Assembly (NCBI GenBank): GCA_050123495.1
Contig: JASFGZ010000003.1
Coordinates: forward strand, 1 to 34,227
Length of the DNA: 34,227 nucleotides
Direction of reading: 5' to 3'
From: Desulfobacterales bacterium
GTDB lineage: Bacteria; Desulfobacterota; Desulfobacteria; Desulfobacterales; JAHEIW01
Part shown: one piece after another, positions 5,052 to 25,880 of the stretch
Layout of the letters: each line of letters opens with the position of its first letter
Numbering within the stretch: position 1 is the first letter of the stretch
The notes under the pieces: model-generated
Databases searched by the model: none
What the model was told of the DNA's origin: nothing
Seen by the model: the letters and a program-made list of their open reading frames with translations, nothing else
Made by a program: the position numbers and the translations under genes

Positions 5052-7157
5052 ATGGCAAACAGCCTTTACATCGCTGCAATGGAACCCGGTAGCGGCAAAT
5101 CGGTGGTCGCCCTCGGTATTATGGAAATGCTTTCAAGACGAACTCGCCGACTGGGTTATTTTCGACCCGTCGTGCCTTCCGCAAAAGAACCGGATAACAA
5201 TATCCGGCTGATAAAAACGCGATACCATCTGGATCTGGACTATGAAGACATGTTTGCCTGTGCACACGCTGATGCCCGGAATCTGGTTGCTGAAGGACGC
5301 GTTGAAACGCTTTTGAAAAACATTCTTAACAAATACAAGGCCCTGGAAGGTAAGTGCAATTTTGTTTTGTGCGAGGGTACGGATTTTACAGGTGTGGGCT
5401 CCGCCTTTGAGTTCGAATTTAACGCCGATGTAGCGAACAATCTGGGGTGTCCGGTTCTGGTGTTGGTCAACGGCCGCGGCAAATCACCCACTGAAACCGT
5501 AGAGGCGATGCAGGTCGCCCAGGAGTCATTTGAAGAAAAAGGGTGCACGGTCGTGGCGACCATTATTAACCGGGCGGATATCAATCGATTCGCGGACGTT
5601 AACGATCAAATAAAAAAAATGGGCCTGCAAGCAGAGCCAATTTACATTCTACCCGAAGAACCCACATTGGGGAAACCAACGGTGGGCGAAATCGCGCGGA
5701 ACCTTAACGCCCAGATTTTTCAGGGCGAACCCAAAAGTTTGAACCGGGAGGTACGTGATTTCAAGGTTGCCGCCATGCAGTTGCCCCATTTTCTGGAACA
5801 CGTCACAGACGGCGATCTTATTATTACACCGGGAGACCGTGCCGACGTGATTCTGGGAAGCCTGGCGACCACCGTCTCTGAGACCTACCCGAATATTGCC
5901 GGCTTGCTTTTGACCGGGGGATTGACACCTGAAAAACCGGTTCAGCGCCTGATTGCGGGCTTTAAAAAGTATTCACCGATTCCGGTTATCATGGTTGATA
6001 CCGACACCTATACCACTGCCATGAATGCCAGTGTGGTACGCCCGGCGCTGACACCTGAAAACGACCGCAAAATCGCCGCCGCCCTGGGTATTTTTGAAGC
6101 CCATGTGAATACAACCCGGCTCGAGGACCGCATCCAGGTGGTGCGTTCAAACCGGGTTACGCCCATCATGTTTGAATATAAGCTCATCGAGAGAGCCAAG
6201 GCCGATCCCCGGCACATCGTTTTGCCGGAAGGCGAGGAAGAACGCATATTACGCGCCAGTGAAATCCTTTTACGAAGGGGTGTGGCCGACCTCACCTTGC
6301 TGGGAAACCCGGATGAGATCAAAAATAAAATCGGCACCCTGGGACTCAACCTGGATGGAATTCAGATTATTGATCCGCTCACATCCGAGTGGCGCAGTGA
6401 CTTTGCCCGGACATATTACGAGATGCGCAAGCACAAGGGCATATCCGAAAAAATGGCCGCCGATACCGCCACCGATGCCAACTACTTTGGCACGCTGATG
6501 GTATACAAAGATCTTGCCGACGGCATGGTTTCGGGCGCCATCCACACCACGGGCGAAACGATTCTGCCGGCCCTGCAGATTATTCGCACCCAGCCTGGAT
6601 TCTCCGTCGTTTCCAGCGTTTTTATCATGTGCCTGGCAGACCGTGTCCTCGTTTACGGAGATTGCGCCGTCAATCCCGATCCGAACGCCGCACAGCTGGC
6701 GGAAATTGCGATCAGTTCTGCGGAAACCGCCGCCATCTATGGAATCGAACCCTGTATCGCAATGTGTTCCTATTCAACCGGCGAATCGGGCAAAGGCGCC
6801 GAAGTCGATAAAGTGCGAGAAGCCACCCGCATCGCCAGGGAACGCCGGCCGGATTTAAAAATTGAAGGTCCCATTCAGTACGATGCCGCCGTGGATGCCG
6901 GCGTCGCCAGGACCAAACTTCCGGAAAGCGAGGTTGCCGGCAAAGCCACTGTCTTTATTTTCCCGGATTTGAATACCGGTAATAATCTTTACAAGGCGGT
7001 GCAGCGTTCCGCAAATGCGGTTGCCATTGGCCCGGTTCTGCAAGGATTGAAAAAACCGGTCAACGATTTAAGCCGCGGCTGCACGATCCCGGATATCGTC
7101 AACACCGTCGCCATTACCGCCATTCAGGCACAGGCGGTCCATCGGCCCGGCAGCTAA
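5052..7157 (+). CDS. pta: Phosphate acetyltransferase, long form (BioD-like N-domain + DRTGG + PTA)
   Basis: GSGKS, ITPGDRADV/LLLTGG, IVLPEGEEERIL, YGDCAVNP, GPIQYDAA, FPDLNTGN, NDLSRGC. AGGAGG RBS. Confidence 0.97.
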   Translation: MANSLYIAAMEPGSGKSVVALGIMEMLSRRTRRLGYFRPVVPSAKEPDNNIRLIKTRYHLDLDYEDMFACAHADARNLVAEGRVETLLKNILNKYKALEGKCNFVLCEGTDFTGVGSAFEFEFNADVANNLGCPVLVLVNGRGKSPTETVEAMQVAQESFEEKGCTVVATIINRADINRFADVNDQIKKMGLQAEPIYILPEEPTLGKPTVGEIARNLNAQIFQGEPKSLNREVRDFKVAAMQLPHFLEHVTDGDLIITPGDRADVILGSLATTVSETYPNIAGLLLTGGLTPEKPVQRLIAGFKKYSPIPVIMVDTDTYTTAMNASVVRPALTPENDRKIAAALGIFEAHVNTTRLEDRIQVVRSNRVTPIMFEYKLIERAKADPRHIVLPEGEEERILRASEILLRRGVADLTLLGNPDEIKNKIGTLGLNLDGIQIIDPLTSEWRSDFARTYYEMRKHKGISEKMAADTATDANYFGTLMVYKDLADGMVSGAIHTTGETILPALQIIRTQPGFSVVSSVFIMCLADRVLVYGDCAVNPDPNAAQLAEIAISSAETAAIYGIEPCIAMCSYSTGESGKGAEVDKVREATRIARERRPDLKIEGPIQYDAAVDAGVARTKLPESEVAGKATVFIFPDLNTGNNLYKAVQRSANAVAIGPVLQGLKKPVNDLSRGCTIPDIVNTVAITAIQAQAVHRPGS

Positions 7158-7220
7158 ATAGGTCGTGGCAAACTCATTCTGGCAGAATAGTGGCCTTATA
7201 CGCTATTAAGACGCCTTTTA

Positions 7221-7252
7221 ATTGCGGATTGCAGATTGCAGATTGCGGATTT
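7221..7252 (+). repeat. Heptamer array, left arm of an inverted repeat
   Basis: ATTGCGG ATTGCAG ATTGCAG ATTGCGG ATTT. Confidence 0.92.
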
Positions 7253-7329
7253 ACTAATACGAAGAGCATGTGCATTATTGACAGATTGGGGGATTGGATA
7301 TTCAAAAGGAAAATAATGGGAGGAAGCAA

Positions 7330-7694
7330 ATGGGAAATGAAACAGCGATGAATCCAGAAGTAATGAAAGATCGGACAAAGAAATTTGCAAAACAGATTAT
7401 TCTCCTTTGCCGAAAACTGCCTAAAAATCGAGAAGGAAATCTGATTGGAAATCAAATTTTTAGGTCGGGTACCTCAGTTGCGTCCAACTATCGTGCAGAG
7501 CAAGATCTAGAGCCGAATTCATTGCTAAAATGGGTATTGTAGAAGAAGAGGCAGATGAAAAATTATTTTGGTTAGAGGTAATAGAAGAAATAGAAATCTT
7601 TAATAAAGATTTAATTTCATCCCTGATGCGAGAATGCAATGAAATTTTATCCATGGTGGTAGCCTCAATAAACACGGCCCGAAAGGGAAAGTAA
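7330..7694 (+). pseudogene. Four-helix-bundle protein (23S rRNA intervening-sequence protein/Avd-like family), frameshifted
   Basis: Frame 1 from ATG 7330 (GGGAGG RBS): MGNETAMNPEVMKDRTKKFAKQIILLCRKLP...QIFRSGTSVASNYRA. It continues in the -1 frame from 7497: RARSRAEFIAKMGIVEEEADEKLFWLEVIEE...ECNEILSMVVASINTARKGK* (TAA 7692-7694). This matches the family pattern RSGTSVGANYRAACRARSxAEFxxKxGIVEEEADExxYWLE. Confidence 0.88.
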
Positions 7695-7723
7695 TGTTAC
7701 GTTACAAATTGGATATTAAAATC

Positions 7724-7754
7724 AATCCGCAATCTGCAATCCGAAATCCGCAAT
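7724..7754 (+). repeat. Heptamer array, right arm (reverse complement of 7221-7251)
   Basis: AATCCGC AATCTGC AATCCGA AATCCGC AAT. Its reverse complement matches the left arm at 29/31 positions. It ends a few nt before the ackA RBS. Confidence 0.92.
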
Positions 7755-7769
7755 ACATAAGGTGTGCTT

Positions 7770-8990
7770 ATGAAGGTTCTCGTACTTAACTCCGGAAGCT
7801 CATCGATCAAATACCGGCTCTTCGACATGACCGGCAAAACCGTGCTGGCATCCGGCGTTATGGAAAAAATCGGGGAAGCCGAAAGCCGGCTTACCCACCA
7901 TACCCGCAACCGCAAAGGTGAAATGGTAGAAATCGTCAAAACCGAACCGGTTGCCGACCACCAGCAAGGCTTTCAGCTGATCGGAGCTGTTTTAGGAAAA
8001 TCAGGCGCTGTTCAGGATAATAAGGAACTGTTCGGTATCGGTCATCGGGTGGTACACGGCGGAGAAGAATTTAAGGAACCGACACTTATAGATAAAAAAG
8101 TAATCGACGCCATTCGCAGACTGATCCCGCTTGCCCCGCTGCACAATCCGGCCAATCTGCTGGGTATTGAAGTCGCCATCCAAAACGCCCCGCAGGTGCC
8201 CCAGGTGGCCGTGTTTGACACAGCCTTTCATCATTCGATTCCGGTGCATGCGTTTCGCTACGCCATCCCGCAGGATCTCTACGAAGCGCACCATGTCCGC
8301 CGCTACGGCTTCCACGGGACATCTCATCATTATGTCGCCAAACAGGCGGCAAAGTTAATGAACCGCCCCCTGGATTCGCTAAACCTGATTACCCTGCACC
8401 TGGGAAACGGCGCCAGCGCGACCGCGGTTAAAGAGGGTATCAGTATTGATACGTCCATGGGTATGACCCCCCTTGAAGGTCTAATTATGGGAACCCGCAG
8501 CGGTGATATCGACCCGGCGATTATCTTTTATCTCAAGAGGAAGACCGGTCTGGCCAGAGATGCGGTTGAATCCATACTGAACAAAGAAAGCGGCCTGAAA
8601 GGGATCTGCGGCGTCAATGATATGCGTCAAATTGAAGAGCTCGCCCGCGACGGCAATCCCCGGGCTAAGCTGGCCATCGAAATGGTTTGCTACCGTATCA
8701 AAAAGTACATTGGTGCCTACGATGCCGTCCTGGGCCGGCTTGATGCGCTGGTGTTTACGGCAGGCATCGGTGAAAAATCACCTCTGATTCGTGCGGGTTC
8801 CTGCCAGGGGCTCGCTCATCTGGGAATCGAGGTGGATCCTGATAAGAACAACCGCAGGTCGAAAGAGGCATTTGAAATTCAGGCCGAAAGCAGCACCGTC
8901 AAAGTCCTTGTTGTTCCCACCAACGAAGAACTCGAAATTGCCGAGCAGACGGTTGCGTGTGTCGAACACAATCGAGACCAGGGCAAATAA
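7770..8990 (+). CDS. ackA: Acetate kinase
   Basis: LVLNSGSSSIKY, GHRVVHGG, APLHNP, VFDTAFH, RRYGFHGTSH, HLGNGAS, MGTRSGDIDP, FTAGIGE, PTNEE. Confidence 0.97.
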   Translation: MKVLVLNSGSSSIKYRLFDMTGKTVLASGVMEKIGEAESRLTHHTRNRKGEMVEIVKTEPVADHQQGFQLIGAVLGKSGAVQDNKELFGIGHRVVHGGEEFKEPTLIDKKVIDAIRRLIPLAPLHNPANLLGIEVAIQNAPQVPQVAVFDTAFHHSIPVHAFRYAIPQDLYEAHHVRRYGFHGTSHHYVAKQAAKLMNRPLDSLNLITLHLGNGASATAVKEGISIDTSMGMTPLEGLIMGTRSGDIDPAIIFYLKRKTGLARDAVESILNKESGLKGICGVNDMRQIEELARDGNPRAKLAIEMVCYRIKKYIGAYDAVLGRLDALVFTAGIGEKSPLIRAGSCQGLAHLGIEVDPDKNNRRSKEAFEIQAESSTVKVLVVPTNEELEIAEQTVACVEHNRDQGK

Positions 8991-24776: not shown

Positions 24777-24848
24777 ATTGCGGATTGCGGATTTTGAACG
24801 GGCGATATGTTTGATATTTCAATCCGCAATCCGCAATCCGAAATTCAA
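24777..24848 (+). repeat. Paired inverted heptamer arms without cargo (pgk-fba junction)
   Basis: ATTGCGGATTGCGGATT (24777-24793) is the perfect reverse complement of AATCCGCAATCCGCAAT (24821-24837), with a 27-nt spacer. The right arm continues CCGA AATTCAA. Confidence 0.9.
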
Positions 24849-25848: not shown

Positions 25849-25880
25849 ATTGCGGATTGCAGATTGCGGAATGCGGATTT
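25849..25880 (+). repeat. Heptamer array (ATTGCGG family), solo arm
   Basis: ATTGCGG ATTGCAG ATTGCGG AATGCGG ATTT, 3 nt after the fba stop. Two mismatches to 7221-7252. Confidence 0.9.

What the first reader, a model, noticed from the sequence alone, without database searches (positions are those of the whole stretch)
7221..7754. Four-helix-bundle (IVS/Avd-like) gene bracketed by inverted heptamer arrays and inserted between pta and ackA: candidate 'mRNA intervening sequence' cassette
Seen: a visibly AT-rich ~530-bp segment splits pta from ackA. It carries one four-helix-bundle gene and is bounded by 31-bp inverted repeats (29/31 match), each built of tandem 7-mers. There is no transposase or integrase, and I saw no target-site duplication. 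Established: this protein family was named from 23S rRNA intervening sequences, which are stem-bounded and excised by RNase III, and it is structurally related to Avd, the RNA-binding accessory protein of diversity-generating retroelements. Inference: in the operon transcript the two arms would form a ~31-bp duplex that loops out the gene, so this may be a repeat-targeted mobile or RNA-processed cassette whose protein recognises the heptamers.
Basis: partly seen in the sequence, partly recalled or inferred. Interest (0 to 1): 0.85.

Follow-up and report, generated by a model that had tools for sequence, protein, structure and literature searches.

The report
Operon-embedded IVS-type four-helix-bundle gene cassette

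Summary
Arms 7221-7251 and 7724-7754 match at 29 of 31 positions and are built of tandem 7-mers. They enclose an AT-rich segment between pta and ackA that carries a PF05635/TIGR02436 four-helix-bundle (4HB) gene. A 7-nt deletion has broken that gene.

The design is general:
- All 4 PF05635 genes of this genome lie between inverted heptamer arrays, each with a different unit. Only 1 other gene of 975 approximate small genes does.
- 21 of 32 loci in relatives show the same design, and 48 of 70 loci from many phyla and two archaea do (mismatched control 1 of 70).
- The purine-rich arm lies upstream of the gene.
- The gene is co-oriented with both neighbours in 50 of 64 loci (baseline 45%).

A paper on the Coxiella 23S rRNA IVS describes the same design: a stem, tandem heptamers and cutting by RNase III.

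At pta-ackA the cassette is inherited vertically. It is intact in three relatives, internally deleted in one and replaced by other heptamer hairpins in others. The arms are its best-conserved part.

Best reading: a decaying IVS-type cassette, read through from pta, whose stem is probably an RNase III-type processing site. No RNA data were available, and binding of the arms by the protein is untested. My searches found no paper that links this gene family to heptamer hairpins.

The parts
5052..7157 (+). pta (phosphate acetyltransferase), the upstream host gene
   Evidence: Pfam PTA_PTB E 1.7e-126, plus DRTGG and AAA_26
7221..7251 (.). left arm: 4.4 tandem heptamers of the form ATTGCRG
   Evidence: the repeat finder I1; TRF period 7; 97% identical to the G018 and G012 orthologous arms
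7252..7329 (+). inner 5' non-coding stretch. It resembles the loop of the gene-less hairpins of the same family. It holds direct-repeat copy 1 (7293-7306) and a GGGAGG Shine-Dalgarno-like site (7318-7323).
   Evidence: by inspection; only 58-63% identical to orthologues
7330..7542 (+). N-terminal part of the four-helix-bundle gene. After the break it runs into a premature stop at 7540-7542.
   Evidence: the ORF listing; PF05635 E 5.8e-5, profile positions 7-46
7492..7499 (+). site of the 7-nt deletion (frameshift) relative to the intact orthologues, which carry a near-tandem 7-mer here
   Evidence: comparison with G018, G012 and G014 (by inspection); orthologues translate to 123 aa; no indel variant in 4 DNA runs
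7491..7694 (+). C-terminal part of the gene, in the other frame, with stop at 7692-7694
   Evidence: PF05635 profile positions 49-104, 26.9 bits; ORF 7530-7694; 80-85% identical to orthologues
7708..7721 (+). direct-repeat copy 2 (13 of 14 identical to 7293-7306). It matches the 3' part of the loop of gene-less hairpins.
   Evidence: the repeat finder D2; loops shown
7724..7754 (.). right arm: inverted heptamer array
   Evidence: 94-100% identical to orthologous arms
7770..8990 (+). ackA (acetate kinase), the downstream host gene. Its ribosome-binding region starts 5 nt after the right arm.
   Evidence: Pfam Acetate_kinase E 1.9e-152
24777..24844 (.). gene-less short hairpin of the same heptamer family: array, 33-nt loop, inverted array
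25849..25876 (.). solo array of the same family

Best explanation
The segment is a decaying copy of an IVS-type cassette. Such a cassette is a small PF05635/TIGR02436 four-helix-bundle gene placed in sense orientation inside a host transcription unit, here pta-ackA. It is closed by a stem of about 31 bp whose two arms are inverted arrays of tandem heptamers.

Shown:
- the architecture;
- its recurrence around genes of this family in this genome, in relatives, and in many phyla;
- its fixed polarity;
- vertical inheritance and stepwise decay at this junction;
- the arms being the best-conserved part.

Inferred: the cassette has no promoter of its own and is transcribed by read-through from pta. 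In that RNA the arms form a long duplex that a double-strand-specific RNase (RNase III, which this genome encodes) cuts, as shown for the rRNA IVS. That cut would separate the pta and ackA messages and release the cassette RNA. In this genome the gene is dead (a 7-nt deletion) and only the stem is still kept.

What the protein does is not known. My guess is that the protein, whose nearest solved relatives are each deposited with five chains, binds the heptamer arms.
For: Architecture at the locus:
- Arms match at 29 of 31 and are built of heptamers.
- They pair in both the MFE and the centroid RNA fold, z -4.29.

Recurrence in this genome:
- All 4 PF05635 loci lie between inverted heptamer arrays with 4 different units.
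- Among 975 approximate small genes only 3 have a flank repeat scoring 13 or more with period 7. Two of them are 4HB genes and one is rpsS.

Recurrence elsewhere:
- Relatives: 21 of 32 loci score 13 or more.
- Many phyla and 2 archaea: 48 of 70, against 1 of 70 for mismatched flanks and 7 of 70 for direct orientation. The best period is 7 in 42 of those 48.

Polarity:
- The upstream arm is purine-rich in 34 of 48 loci and pyrimidine-rich in 1 of 48.
- Both neighbours are co-oriented with the gene in 50 of 64 wide loci and 18 of 19 relatives' loci, against a 45.5% baseline for small genes of G000.

History at pta-ackA:
- Same arms and an intact gene in G018, G012 and G014.
- Arms kept but the gene internally deleted in G015.
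- Only fused arm remnants in G021.
- Identity to G018, G012 and G014 is 0.94-1.00 for the arms (the G014 left arm, cut by its contig end, left out), 0.79-0.86 for the CDS and 0.45-0.67 for non-coding flanks.
- Identity of the 4HB C-terminal half (85, 81, 80%) tracks that of AckA (84, 78, 76%).

Precedent and host enzyme:
- The Coxiella 23S IVS has a 28-bp terminal stem, tandem heptamers upstream of the S23p ORF, RNase III cleavage in vitro and RACE-mapped ends inside the stem (passages of PMC4990558).
- An RNase III gene is present in G000.
Against: - No RNA evidence: no listed run that holds this sequence is on record as RNA.
- Of 138 mismatch columns between arms in the wide set, 25 are G.U-compatible in the sense RNA, 50 in the antisense RNA, and 63 are transversions. 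The arms are therefore not tuned for sense-strand pairing by this test.
- Archaeal copies (L106, L114) have heptamer arms, although most archaea lack RNase III (recalled, not tested).
- 22 of 70 wide loci and 11 of 32 relatives' loci show no flank repeat at the threshold.
- High arm conservation could come from gene conversion among the many genomic copies rather than from selection on an RNA stem.
- Gene-less hairpins show no polarity by purine content.
- No Rfam family matches.
Confidence: 0.5

Rival explanations
1. REPtron-like DNA element. The heptamer arrays are DNA-level (or single-strand DNA hairpin) recognition sites. The 4HB gene between two arrays is the autonomous copy. The many gene-less heptamer hairpins are non-autonomous derivatives that the 4HB protein spreads or maintains in trans, much as RAYT transposases do for REP/REPIN sequences. 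This reading is not exclusive of RNA processing.
For: - About 96 short inverted heptamer pairs lie in G000 (90 after merging overlapping arrays). Gene-less copies of the window's family share a loop of about 33 nt at unrelated loci, so they were copied as units.
- The arms of the 4 4HB genes belong to the 2nd, 3rd and 4th most abundant unit families and to one minor family.
- Samples of 4 relatives without a PF05635 hit (1.37 Mb) hold 0.3-2.2 period-7 arrays per 100 kb and 0 short inverted pairs. Carriers hold 5.5-15.3 arrays per 100 kb.
- The same junction carries different unit families in congeneric species, and G011 has a second cassette type beside an old arm.
- The RAYT-like genes of G000 show the analogous design with their own non-heptamer repeats.
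Against: - A four-helix bundle has no known catalytic activity (recalled).
- No target-site duplication was seen.
- The cassette at this locus is inherited vertically.
- Gene-less hairpins can arise in place by deletion (G015, G021).
- The co-occurrence rests on 4 genomes against 3, which are kin and only partly sampled. G028 (111 kb sampled) had arrays but no short pair.
- Protein distance and unit distance are only weakly correlated: rho 0.07, with 61 of 2000 permutations reaching it, and not significant between phyla.
- The most abundant family, CAGGTGT, has no 4HB gene in this 90%-complete assembly.
Confidence: 0.25
2. The paired arrays are binding sites of a host regulator, or a structural punctuation (terminator, attenuator or mRNA stabiliser) that serves the host operon. 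The 4HB gene would be an unrelated passenger that tends to land in, or survive in, such loops.
For: - Paired tandem hepta- and octanucleotide sites in Geobacter metallireducens were annotated as putative sites of a global regulator (passages of PMC2700814).
- Gene-less hairpins lie mostly between co-directional (53) or convergent (17) genes and rarely between divergent ones (5).
- The arms outlive the gene (G000, G015).
- The fold pairs the region just before the ackA start with the left outer flank.
Against: - It does not explain why 48 of 70 genes of one family in unrelated phyla sit in such loops, always with the same polarity.
- It does not explain why other small genes almost never do.
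- No terminator-like site lies on the + strand here.
- The outer pairing is not conserved in G018 (by inspection).
Confidence: 0.15
3. Chance co-location. Heptamer hairpins are slippage-born repeats that fill many intergenic regions of this genome, and one of them happens to hold a pseudogene.
For: 640 period-7 arrays lie in 4.6 Mb. rpsS and an MvhD-like gene also lie between inverted arrays.
Against: - 4 of 4 4HB genes against 1 other gene of the 975 approximate small genes in G000.
- 48 of 70 against 1 of 70 in the mismatched control.
- The arms are conserved across species at this locus.
- At rpsS each flank holds a complete hairpin of its own, which is a different layout.
Confidence: 0.03

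Closest known systems
23S rRNA intervening sequences (IVS) that carry an S23p / PF05635 ORF (Coxiella, Leptospira and others)
   Same: Same protein family. The ORF sits in the loop of a stem of about 28-31 bp made by terminal inverted repeats. Tandem heptamers lie in the 5' arm; the Coxiella unit differs from the window's CAG-variant unit at 2 of 7 positions. The cassette is in sense orientation inside a host transcript, and the ORF is prone to decay while the RNA element persists (passages of PMC4990558).
   Different: The host transcript here is an mRNA operon (pta-ackA), not rRNA. Excision by RNase III is shown for the rRNA IVS and only inferred here.
Intergenic tandem heptamer repeats: GGGAATC pairs of Xanthomonas, GGGGAYT of Nostoc, paired hepta-/octanucleotide sites of Geobacter metallireducens, STRR of Calothrix (the last recalled and cited within PMC4692102)
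   Same: Tandem 7-mers of about 4-5 units in intergenic regions, often as convergent inverted pairs. They show length variation between close relatives and have no known function (for this genome).
   Different: The passages I read describe gene-less repeats and do not mention PF05635, S23p or four-helix-bundle genes. Here the repeats bracket such genes.
REP/REPIN sequences with their RAYT transposase (REPtrons)
   Same: A small gene flanked by inverted copies of a repeat that is dispersed genome-wide as gene-less hairpins, with one gene per repeat family as a possible rule. The layout is seen for the RAYT-like genes of G000 itself.
   Different: The protein is a four-helix bundle, not a Y1 transposase. 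The arms are tandem arrays, not a unique palindrome. The RAYT-like genes of G000 use other repeats.
Avd, the accessory protein of diversity-generating retroelements
   Same: Homologous four-helix-bundle fold (passage of PMC10053308). The nearest solved relatives by sequence are 2gsc and 2rld, each deposited with 5 chains.
   Different: No reverse transcriptase was found in the genome (the genome is 90% complete). No template or variable repeat is present.
23S_rRNA_IVP genes found inside cas operons (Zhang and Ye 2013)
   Same: The same family inserted between genes of an operon, for example between cmr3 and cmr2 of Pleurocapsa (passage of PMC3936711).
   Different: That paper reads the genes as a CRISPR-associated function and does not mention flanking repeats in the passage read.

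Membership tests
PF05635 / TIGR02436 four-helix-bundle protein (23S rRNA IVS protein) | profile match above the curated cut-off | tested here: met
   The window copy is split: 21.4 and 26.9 bits in two frames, each below the 33.8-bit cut-off. The intact orthologue at the same locus in G018 scores 64.6 bits on PF05635 and 91 bits on TIGR02436 against a cut-off of 24.
PF05635 / TIGR02436 four-helix-bundle protein (23S rRNA IVS protein) | conserved helix-2 motif GxxRxxxSxxxNxxE (as given in PMC3936711) | tested here: inconclusive
   R, S and N are present in the window copy and its orthologues. The final E is replaced in this sub-branch. S49, N53 and E79 are invariant in alignment A1.
PF05635 / TIGR02436 four-helix-bundle protein (23S rRNA IVS protein) | four-helix-bundle fold and pentameric assembly | not tested
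   Sequence-profile match only, to 2gsc (E 2.7e-31) and 2rld (E 1e-27), each deposited with 5 chains. No model was built.
rRNA intervening sequence (IVS) | inserted in a helix of a 23S (or 16S) rRNA gene | tested here: not met
   It lies between pta and ackA. No Rfam match in 6900-8000.
rRNA intervening sequence (IVS) | terminal inverted repeats that form a long stem around the ORF | tested here: met
rRNA intervening sequence (IVS) | tandem heptamers in the stem arm upstream of the ORF (reported for Coxiella) | tested here: met
   compared
rRNA intervening sequence (IVS) | excised from the precursor by RNase III | not testable with these tools
   No listed run that holds this sequence is on record as RNA. 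The rnc gene is present.
DGR accessory protein Avd | adjacent reverse transcriptase and template/variable repeats | tested here: not met
   No RVT_1 match in the whole assembly, which is 90% complete.
REPtron (RAYT with REP/REPIN) | a Y1 transposase gene flanked by the dispersed repeat | tested here: not met
   The enclosed gene is a 4HB gene. The 12 Y1_Tnp genes of G000 are flanked by other, non-heptamer repeats.
MITE | terminal inverted repeats plus target-site duplication, derived from a transposase-bearing IS | tested here: not met
   No duplication outside the arms and no transposase inside.
Intergenic tandem heptamer repeat class (STRR-like) | tandem 7-mers, intergenic, many copies, often in convergent pairs | tested here: met
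   640 arrays and 114 inverted pairs, 90 of them less than 150 nt apart. Position relative to genes.

The most novel reading that the evidence does not exclude
PF05635 four-helix-bundle proteins and tandem-heptamer hairpins form one widespread, so far unrecognised system. It would be an operon-embedded selfish cassette found across bacteria and in some archaea. The classical rRNA IVS would be only the copies that landed in rRNA. The gene-less heptamer hairpins that litter some genomes (STRR-type repeats and the 'global regulator sites' of Geobacter) would be its non-autonomous offspring. The protein ring, taken as a pentamer from the five-chain crystal entries, would read about five heptamers of the arm, whose modal length is 31 nt.
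Probability: 0.3. Interest if true: 0.9.

Novelty: new variant of a known kind. Interest (0 to 1): 0.8.

Why it matters
Two old puzzles would become one testable question.
- The function of the very common "23S rRNA intervening sequence protein" family (tens of copies in some genomes, and relatives of Avd) is unknown.
- The origin and role of intergenic tandem heptamer repeats, reported in cyanobacteria, Xanthomonas and Geobacter, are also unknown.

If the gene and the repeats belong together, IVSs are not an rRNA oddity. They would be a general class of cassettes that ride inside host transcripts and are cut out at a repeat-built stem. That would matter for operon mRNA processing, genome annotation and repeat evolution. 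It also names a candidate ligand, the heptamer arm, for biochemical work on the protein.

Tried and rejected
- **RNA evidence.** The look-up of sequencing runs listed no holder on record as RNA. Read laying on 4 DNA runs (contigs) confirmed the sequence. The 'joints' it reported carry other loops between the arms, so they are other hairpin copies and not an empty allele.
- **Rfam.** No match.
- **Promoter and terminator scan.** Nothing on the + strand.
- **G.U test for a sense-RNA stem.** Not supportive.
- **Mantel test of protein distance against heptamer-unit distance.** Run on 43 loci: the 42 period-7 loci scoring 13 or more, plus L070 at score 12. The result was weak: rho 0.072, with 61 of 2000 permutations reaching it. 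For different-phylum pairs, 250 of 2000 reached it.
- **Purine polarity of gene-less hairpins.** None found.
- **RAYT as mobiliser of the heptamer hairpins.** Rejected, because the RAYT-like genes have their own repeats.
- **DGR/Avd reading.** Rejected, because no RT was found.
- **Slips and limits of my own calls.** In one search my N-terminal query was one base out of frame, so I ignore its identities; the C-terminal query was correct. The mismatched-locus control was contaminated by repeat families shared among kin (6 of 32 score 13 or more). The cleaner controls are. The wide test sampled only the best 80 of at least 597 matches to one motif of one sub-branch of the family, and 10 of those 80 lacked 300-nt flanks.
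- **Literature.** Searches found no paper that links this family to flanking heptamer arrays. One search was badly framed and gave nothing. Of the papers, I read only the passages returned by 'find'. Supplements were closed. The additional files of PMC2700814 list the genes next to the paired repeats and could already show 4HB neighbours.
- **The search of earlier findings.** Closed.
Full report
**1. The observation**

The window has an inverted repeat at 7221-7251 and 7724-7754: 31 nt, 94% complementary, 472 nt apart. Each arm is a tandem array of 4.4-4.6 heptamers of the form ATTGCRG. A two-unit pattern of this kind occurs 14 times in the window against 0.14 expected from shuffles. The enclosed DNA has GC 0.35-0.38, against 0.52-0.56 in the flanking genes. 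Those genes are pta (5052-7157) and ackA (7770-8990).

**2. The gene**

Two adjacent reading frames match PF05635 (23S_rRNA_IVP):
- 7372-7491 matches profile positions 8-46;
- 7491-7658 matches profile positions 49-104.

Relatives carry an intact 123-aa gene at the same place. The G018 protein scores 91 bits on TIGR02436, 'four helix bundle protein'. A profile of 14 relatives finds the solved structures 2gsc (XCC0516) and 2rld, each with five chains. Compared with the orthologues, the window copy lacks 7 nt at about 7498/7499, where the intact genes carry a near-tandem 7-mer (by inspection). Contigs of two public DNA runs reproduce 7223-7749 without a difference, and no indel variant was listed in four runs. 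Those runs may include the sample the genome was assembled from. The gene here is therefore a pseudogene.

**3. The arms belong to a genome-wide repeat class**

The window is contig C3 of a 600-contig assembly of 4.63 Mb.
- Tandem Repeats Finder gives 640 merged period-7 arrays with at least 2.5 copies.
- 114 pairs of arrays with the same unit lie in inverted orientation within 2 kb. Of these, 90 are less than 150 nt apart. Only 17 pairs lie in direct orientation.
- The arrays fall into 53 unit families by greedy clustering. The window's family (83 arrays) is the third largest.
- Gene-less hairpins of this family share a loop of about 33 nt at unrelated loci, so they are copies of one another.
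- Arm length peaks at 31 nt.
- Short hairpins lie between co-directional (53) or convergent (17) genes and seldom between divergent ones (5).

**4. The other four-helix-bundle genes of the genome**

The genome has three more PF05635 genes, on C248, C72 and C151. Each lies between inverted heptamer arrays, and each has a different unit.

As a null I built an approximate gene set of 4146 ORFs (greedy longest ORFs). I scored the best ungapped inverted match (+1/-2) between the 300-nt flanks of the 975 ORFs of 90-200 aa. Fifteen score 13 or more. Only three of these have arms with period 7: the 4HB genes of C72 and C151, and rpsS. At rpsS each flank holds a complete hairpin of its own. A fourth non-4HB case, an MvhD-like gene with an in-frame TGA, lies between single arrays.

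**5. Relatives**

PF05635 is found in 36 of 41 genomes of the same order, counting G000. For the best locus of each of 29 relatives, plus the three further loci of G000, the flank score is 13 or more in 21 of 32. Most have period-7 arms of many unit families and a few have period 8. The mismatched-flank control of that call was contaminated by shared repeat families (6 of 32).

**6. History of the pta-ackA junction**

AckA was found in 30 of 41 genomes, and 28 upstream junctions were extracted.

| State of the junction | Genomes |
|---|---|
| Same ATTGCRG arms, intact 4HB gene | G018, G012, G014 |
| Arms kept, all but the last 23 codons of the gene lost | G015 |
| More divergent 4HB gene between GGATTTT-type arms, with an extra array of the old family to its right | G011 |
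| 37-nt spacer made of fused remnants of both arrays | G021 |
| 4HB gene with different, roughly 10-nt repeats (genome of another family) | G027 |
| Gene-less hairpins or arrays of other unit families | G017, G008, G007, G006, G001, G013, G009, G022, G023 |
| 18-nt spacer | G040 |

On an AckA tree the gene-bearing state is scattered. G000 is sister to G017, which has a hairpin of another family. The 4HB C-terminal half is 85, 81 and 80% identical to that of G018, G012 and G014, where AckA is 84, 78 and 76%. I read this as vertical descent of the cassette in the genus, with repeated loss and replacement.

Segment by segment against G018, G012 and G014:
- arms 0.94-1.00 identical (the G014 left arm is cut by its contig end);
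- coding sequence 0.79-0.86;
- non-coding stretches 0.45-0.67.

**7. Beyond the order**

A scan of one genome per species used an alignment of six proteins and the pattern [AS]VS[IV][PM][SA]N[IL][AV]E. It gave at least 597 confirmed stretches, of which the best 80 were kept. They come from Acidobacteriota, Bacteroidota, Planctomycetota, Chloroflexota, Verrucomicrobiota, Nitrospirota, Firmicutes, Elusimicrobiota, candidate-phyla bacteria, Alphaproteobacteria and two archaeal lineages.
- Seventy loci have 300 nt on both sides.
- The flank score is 13 or more in 48 of the 70. Flanks paired with another locus give 1 of 70, and direct orientation gives 7 of 70.
- At a score of 18 or more the counts are 33, 0 and 2.
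- Seven is the best period in 42 of the 48.
- I read two examples directly.
- The upstream arm is purine-rich on the gene's strand: median 0.68, above 0.6 in 34 of 48 and below 0.4 in 1 of 48.
- Both neighbouring genes run the same way as the 4HB gene in 50 of 64 loci with clear neighbours. The opposite arrangement occurs in 2 of 64. In relatives the count is 18 of 19. For small ORFs of G000 the baseline is 45.5%.

The cassette is thus a polar insert within transcription units.

**8. What is in print**

I read only passages returned by 'find'.
- PMC4990558: the Coxiella 23S rRNA IVS has a 28-bp stem of terminal inverted repeats around an S23p ORF. It has three tandem heptameric repeats upstream of the start, whose number varies among strains. 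RNase III cleaves it in vitro, its ends map inside the stem, and the ORF is decaying.
- PMC3936711: 18 genes of this family inside cas loci, one of them between cmr3 and cmr2.
- PMC4692102: intergenic heptamer repeats in Xanthomonas and Nostoc. In Xanthomonas there are 70-75 convergent pairs. Their function is unknown.
- PMC2700814: paired tandem hepta- and octanucleotide sites in Geobacter metallireducens, read as regulator sites.
- None of these passages connects the repeats with this gene family outside rRNA. My searches found no paper that does.
- Supplements were closed.

**9. Do the gene and the repeats go together across genomes?**

I sampled four relatives without a PF05635 hit (G029, G036, G030, G026; 1.37 Mb in all).
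- They hold 0.3-2.2 period-7 arrays per 100 kb and no short inverted pair.
- Carriers hold 5.5 (G040, 2 pairs in 311 kb), 15.3 (G028, no pair in 111 kb) and 14.3 (G000, 96 pairs) per 100 kb.
- This is suggestive only. The genomes are few and related, and the samples are partial.
- As a positive control for the method, the 12 RAYT-like Y1_Tnp genes of G000 are flanked by their own non-heptamer inverted repeats. Ten of 11 score 18 or more. The heptamer hairpins are therefore not the RAYT repeats.

**10. Mechanism**

Shown:
- the architecture, its generality and its polarity;
- its presence in rRNA IVSs;
- the decay series at this locus;
- the arms as the best-kept part.

Inferred:
- The cassette is transcribed from the pta promoter. 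No promoter-like site lies on the + strand.
- The arms form a 31-bp duplex in that RNA. They pair in the MFE and centroid folds, with z -4.29.
- RNase III, whose gene is present, cuts the duplex as in rRNA.

Against this reading:
- There are no RNA data.
- Arm mismatches favour antisense rather than sense G.U pairs, 50 against 25 of 138 columns.
- Archaeal copies exist.
- Arm conservation could reflect gene conversion among copies.

Evidence for and against it is listed under the rival explanations. A pure-chance reading is excluded.

**11. Verdict**

The finding is real, and its interpretation is largely on the right track. The element is best filed as a new variant of a known kind: an IVS-type cassette in an mRNA operon. 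It fails the defining IVS feature of lying in rRNA, but it shares the protein family, the stem and the heptamers. The wider result is that genes of this family are, as a rule, enclosed in tandem-heptamer hairpins inside operons across phyla. I did not find that in print, and it deserves a proper census and an RNA experiment.

Noticed in passing
L065-L144 (consensus units printed): By eye, 32 of 43 consensus heptamer units of the upstream arm contain TAG or CAG when read circularly on the gene's strand. A rough hand estimate from arm composition gives about 24%. The window's variant unit and the Coxiella unit also hold CAG.
   Followed up: partly
window 7492-7499: The gene-killing lesion is itself the loss of one copy of a near-tandem 7-mer inside the coding sequence, as seen against the orthologues.
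   Followed up: partly
G000 C347:2018-2546: Ribosomal protein S19 (rpsS) has a complete heptamer hairpin of the GTTATTN family in each of its two flanking spacers.
   Followed up: partly
G000 C206:4185-4655: An MvhD-like gene with an in-frame TGA (possibly selenocysteine) lies between single inverted heptamer arrays. It is the only non-4HB gene I saw in that layout.
   Followed up: no
G000, 12 loci (e.g. C1:6646-7626, C10:11244-12287): Twelve Y1_Tnp (RAYT-like) genes of 315-360 aa, each flanked by its own inverted repeats of a GGGG[AT]C-type motif. This is a separate REPtron-like family.
   Followed up: partly
G000 C10, C38, C191, C385, C577 and others: Many hairpins of the window's family are nested inside a second, outer pair of inverted repeats built of 8-nt units (TGGAGNAA type). 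The genome also has 370 period-8 arrays.
   Followed up: no
window 24777-24844 and 25849-25876: A gene-less hairpin and a solo array of the same family flank a gene that looks like class II fructose-bisphosphate aldolase, downstream of what looks like pgk. Both gene names are by eye and were not scanned.
   Followed up: no
L049 (G011) and L050 (G021), pta-ackA junction: G011 carries a more divergent 4HB gene between GGATTTT-type arms, with an array of the old family still present to the right. G021 keeps only 37 nt of fused array remnants. This looks like cassette replacement followed by collapse.
   Followed up: partly
window 7205-7220 with 7755-7770: In the predicted fold the stem extends outward and pairs the region just before the ackA start codon with the left outer flank. 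The complementarity is not kept in G018.
   Followed up: partly
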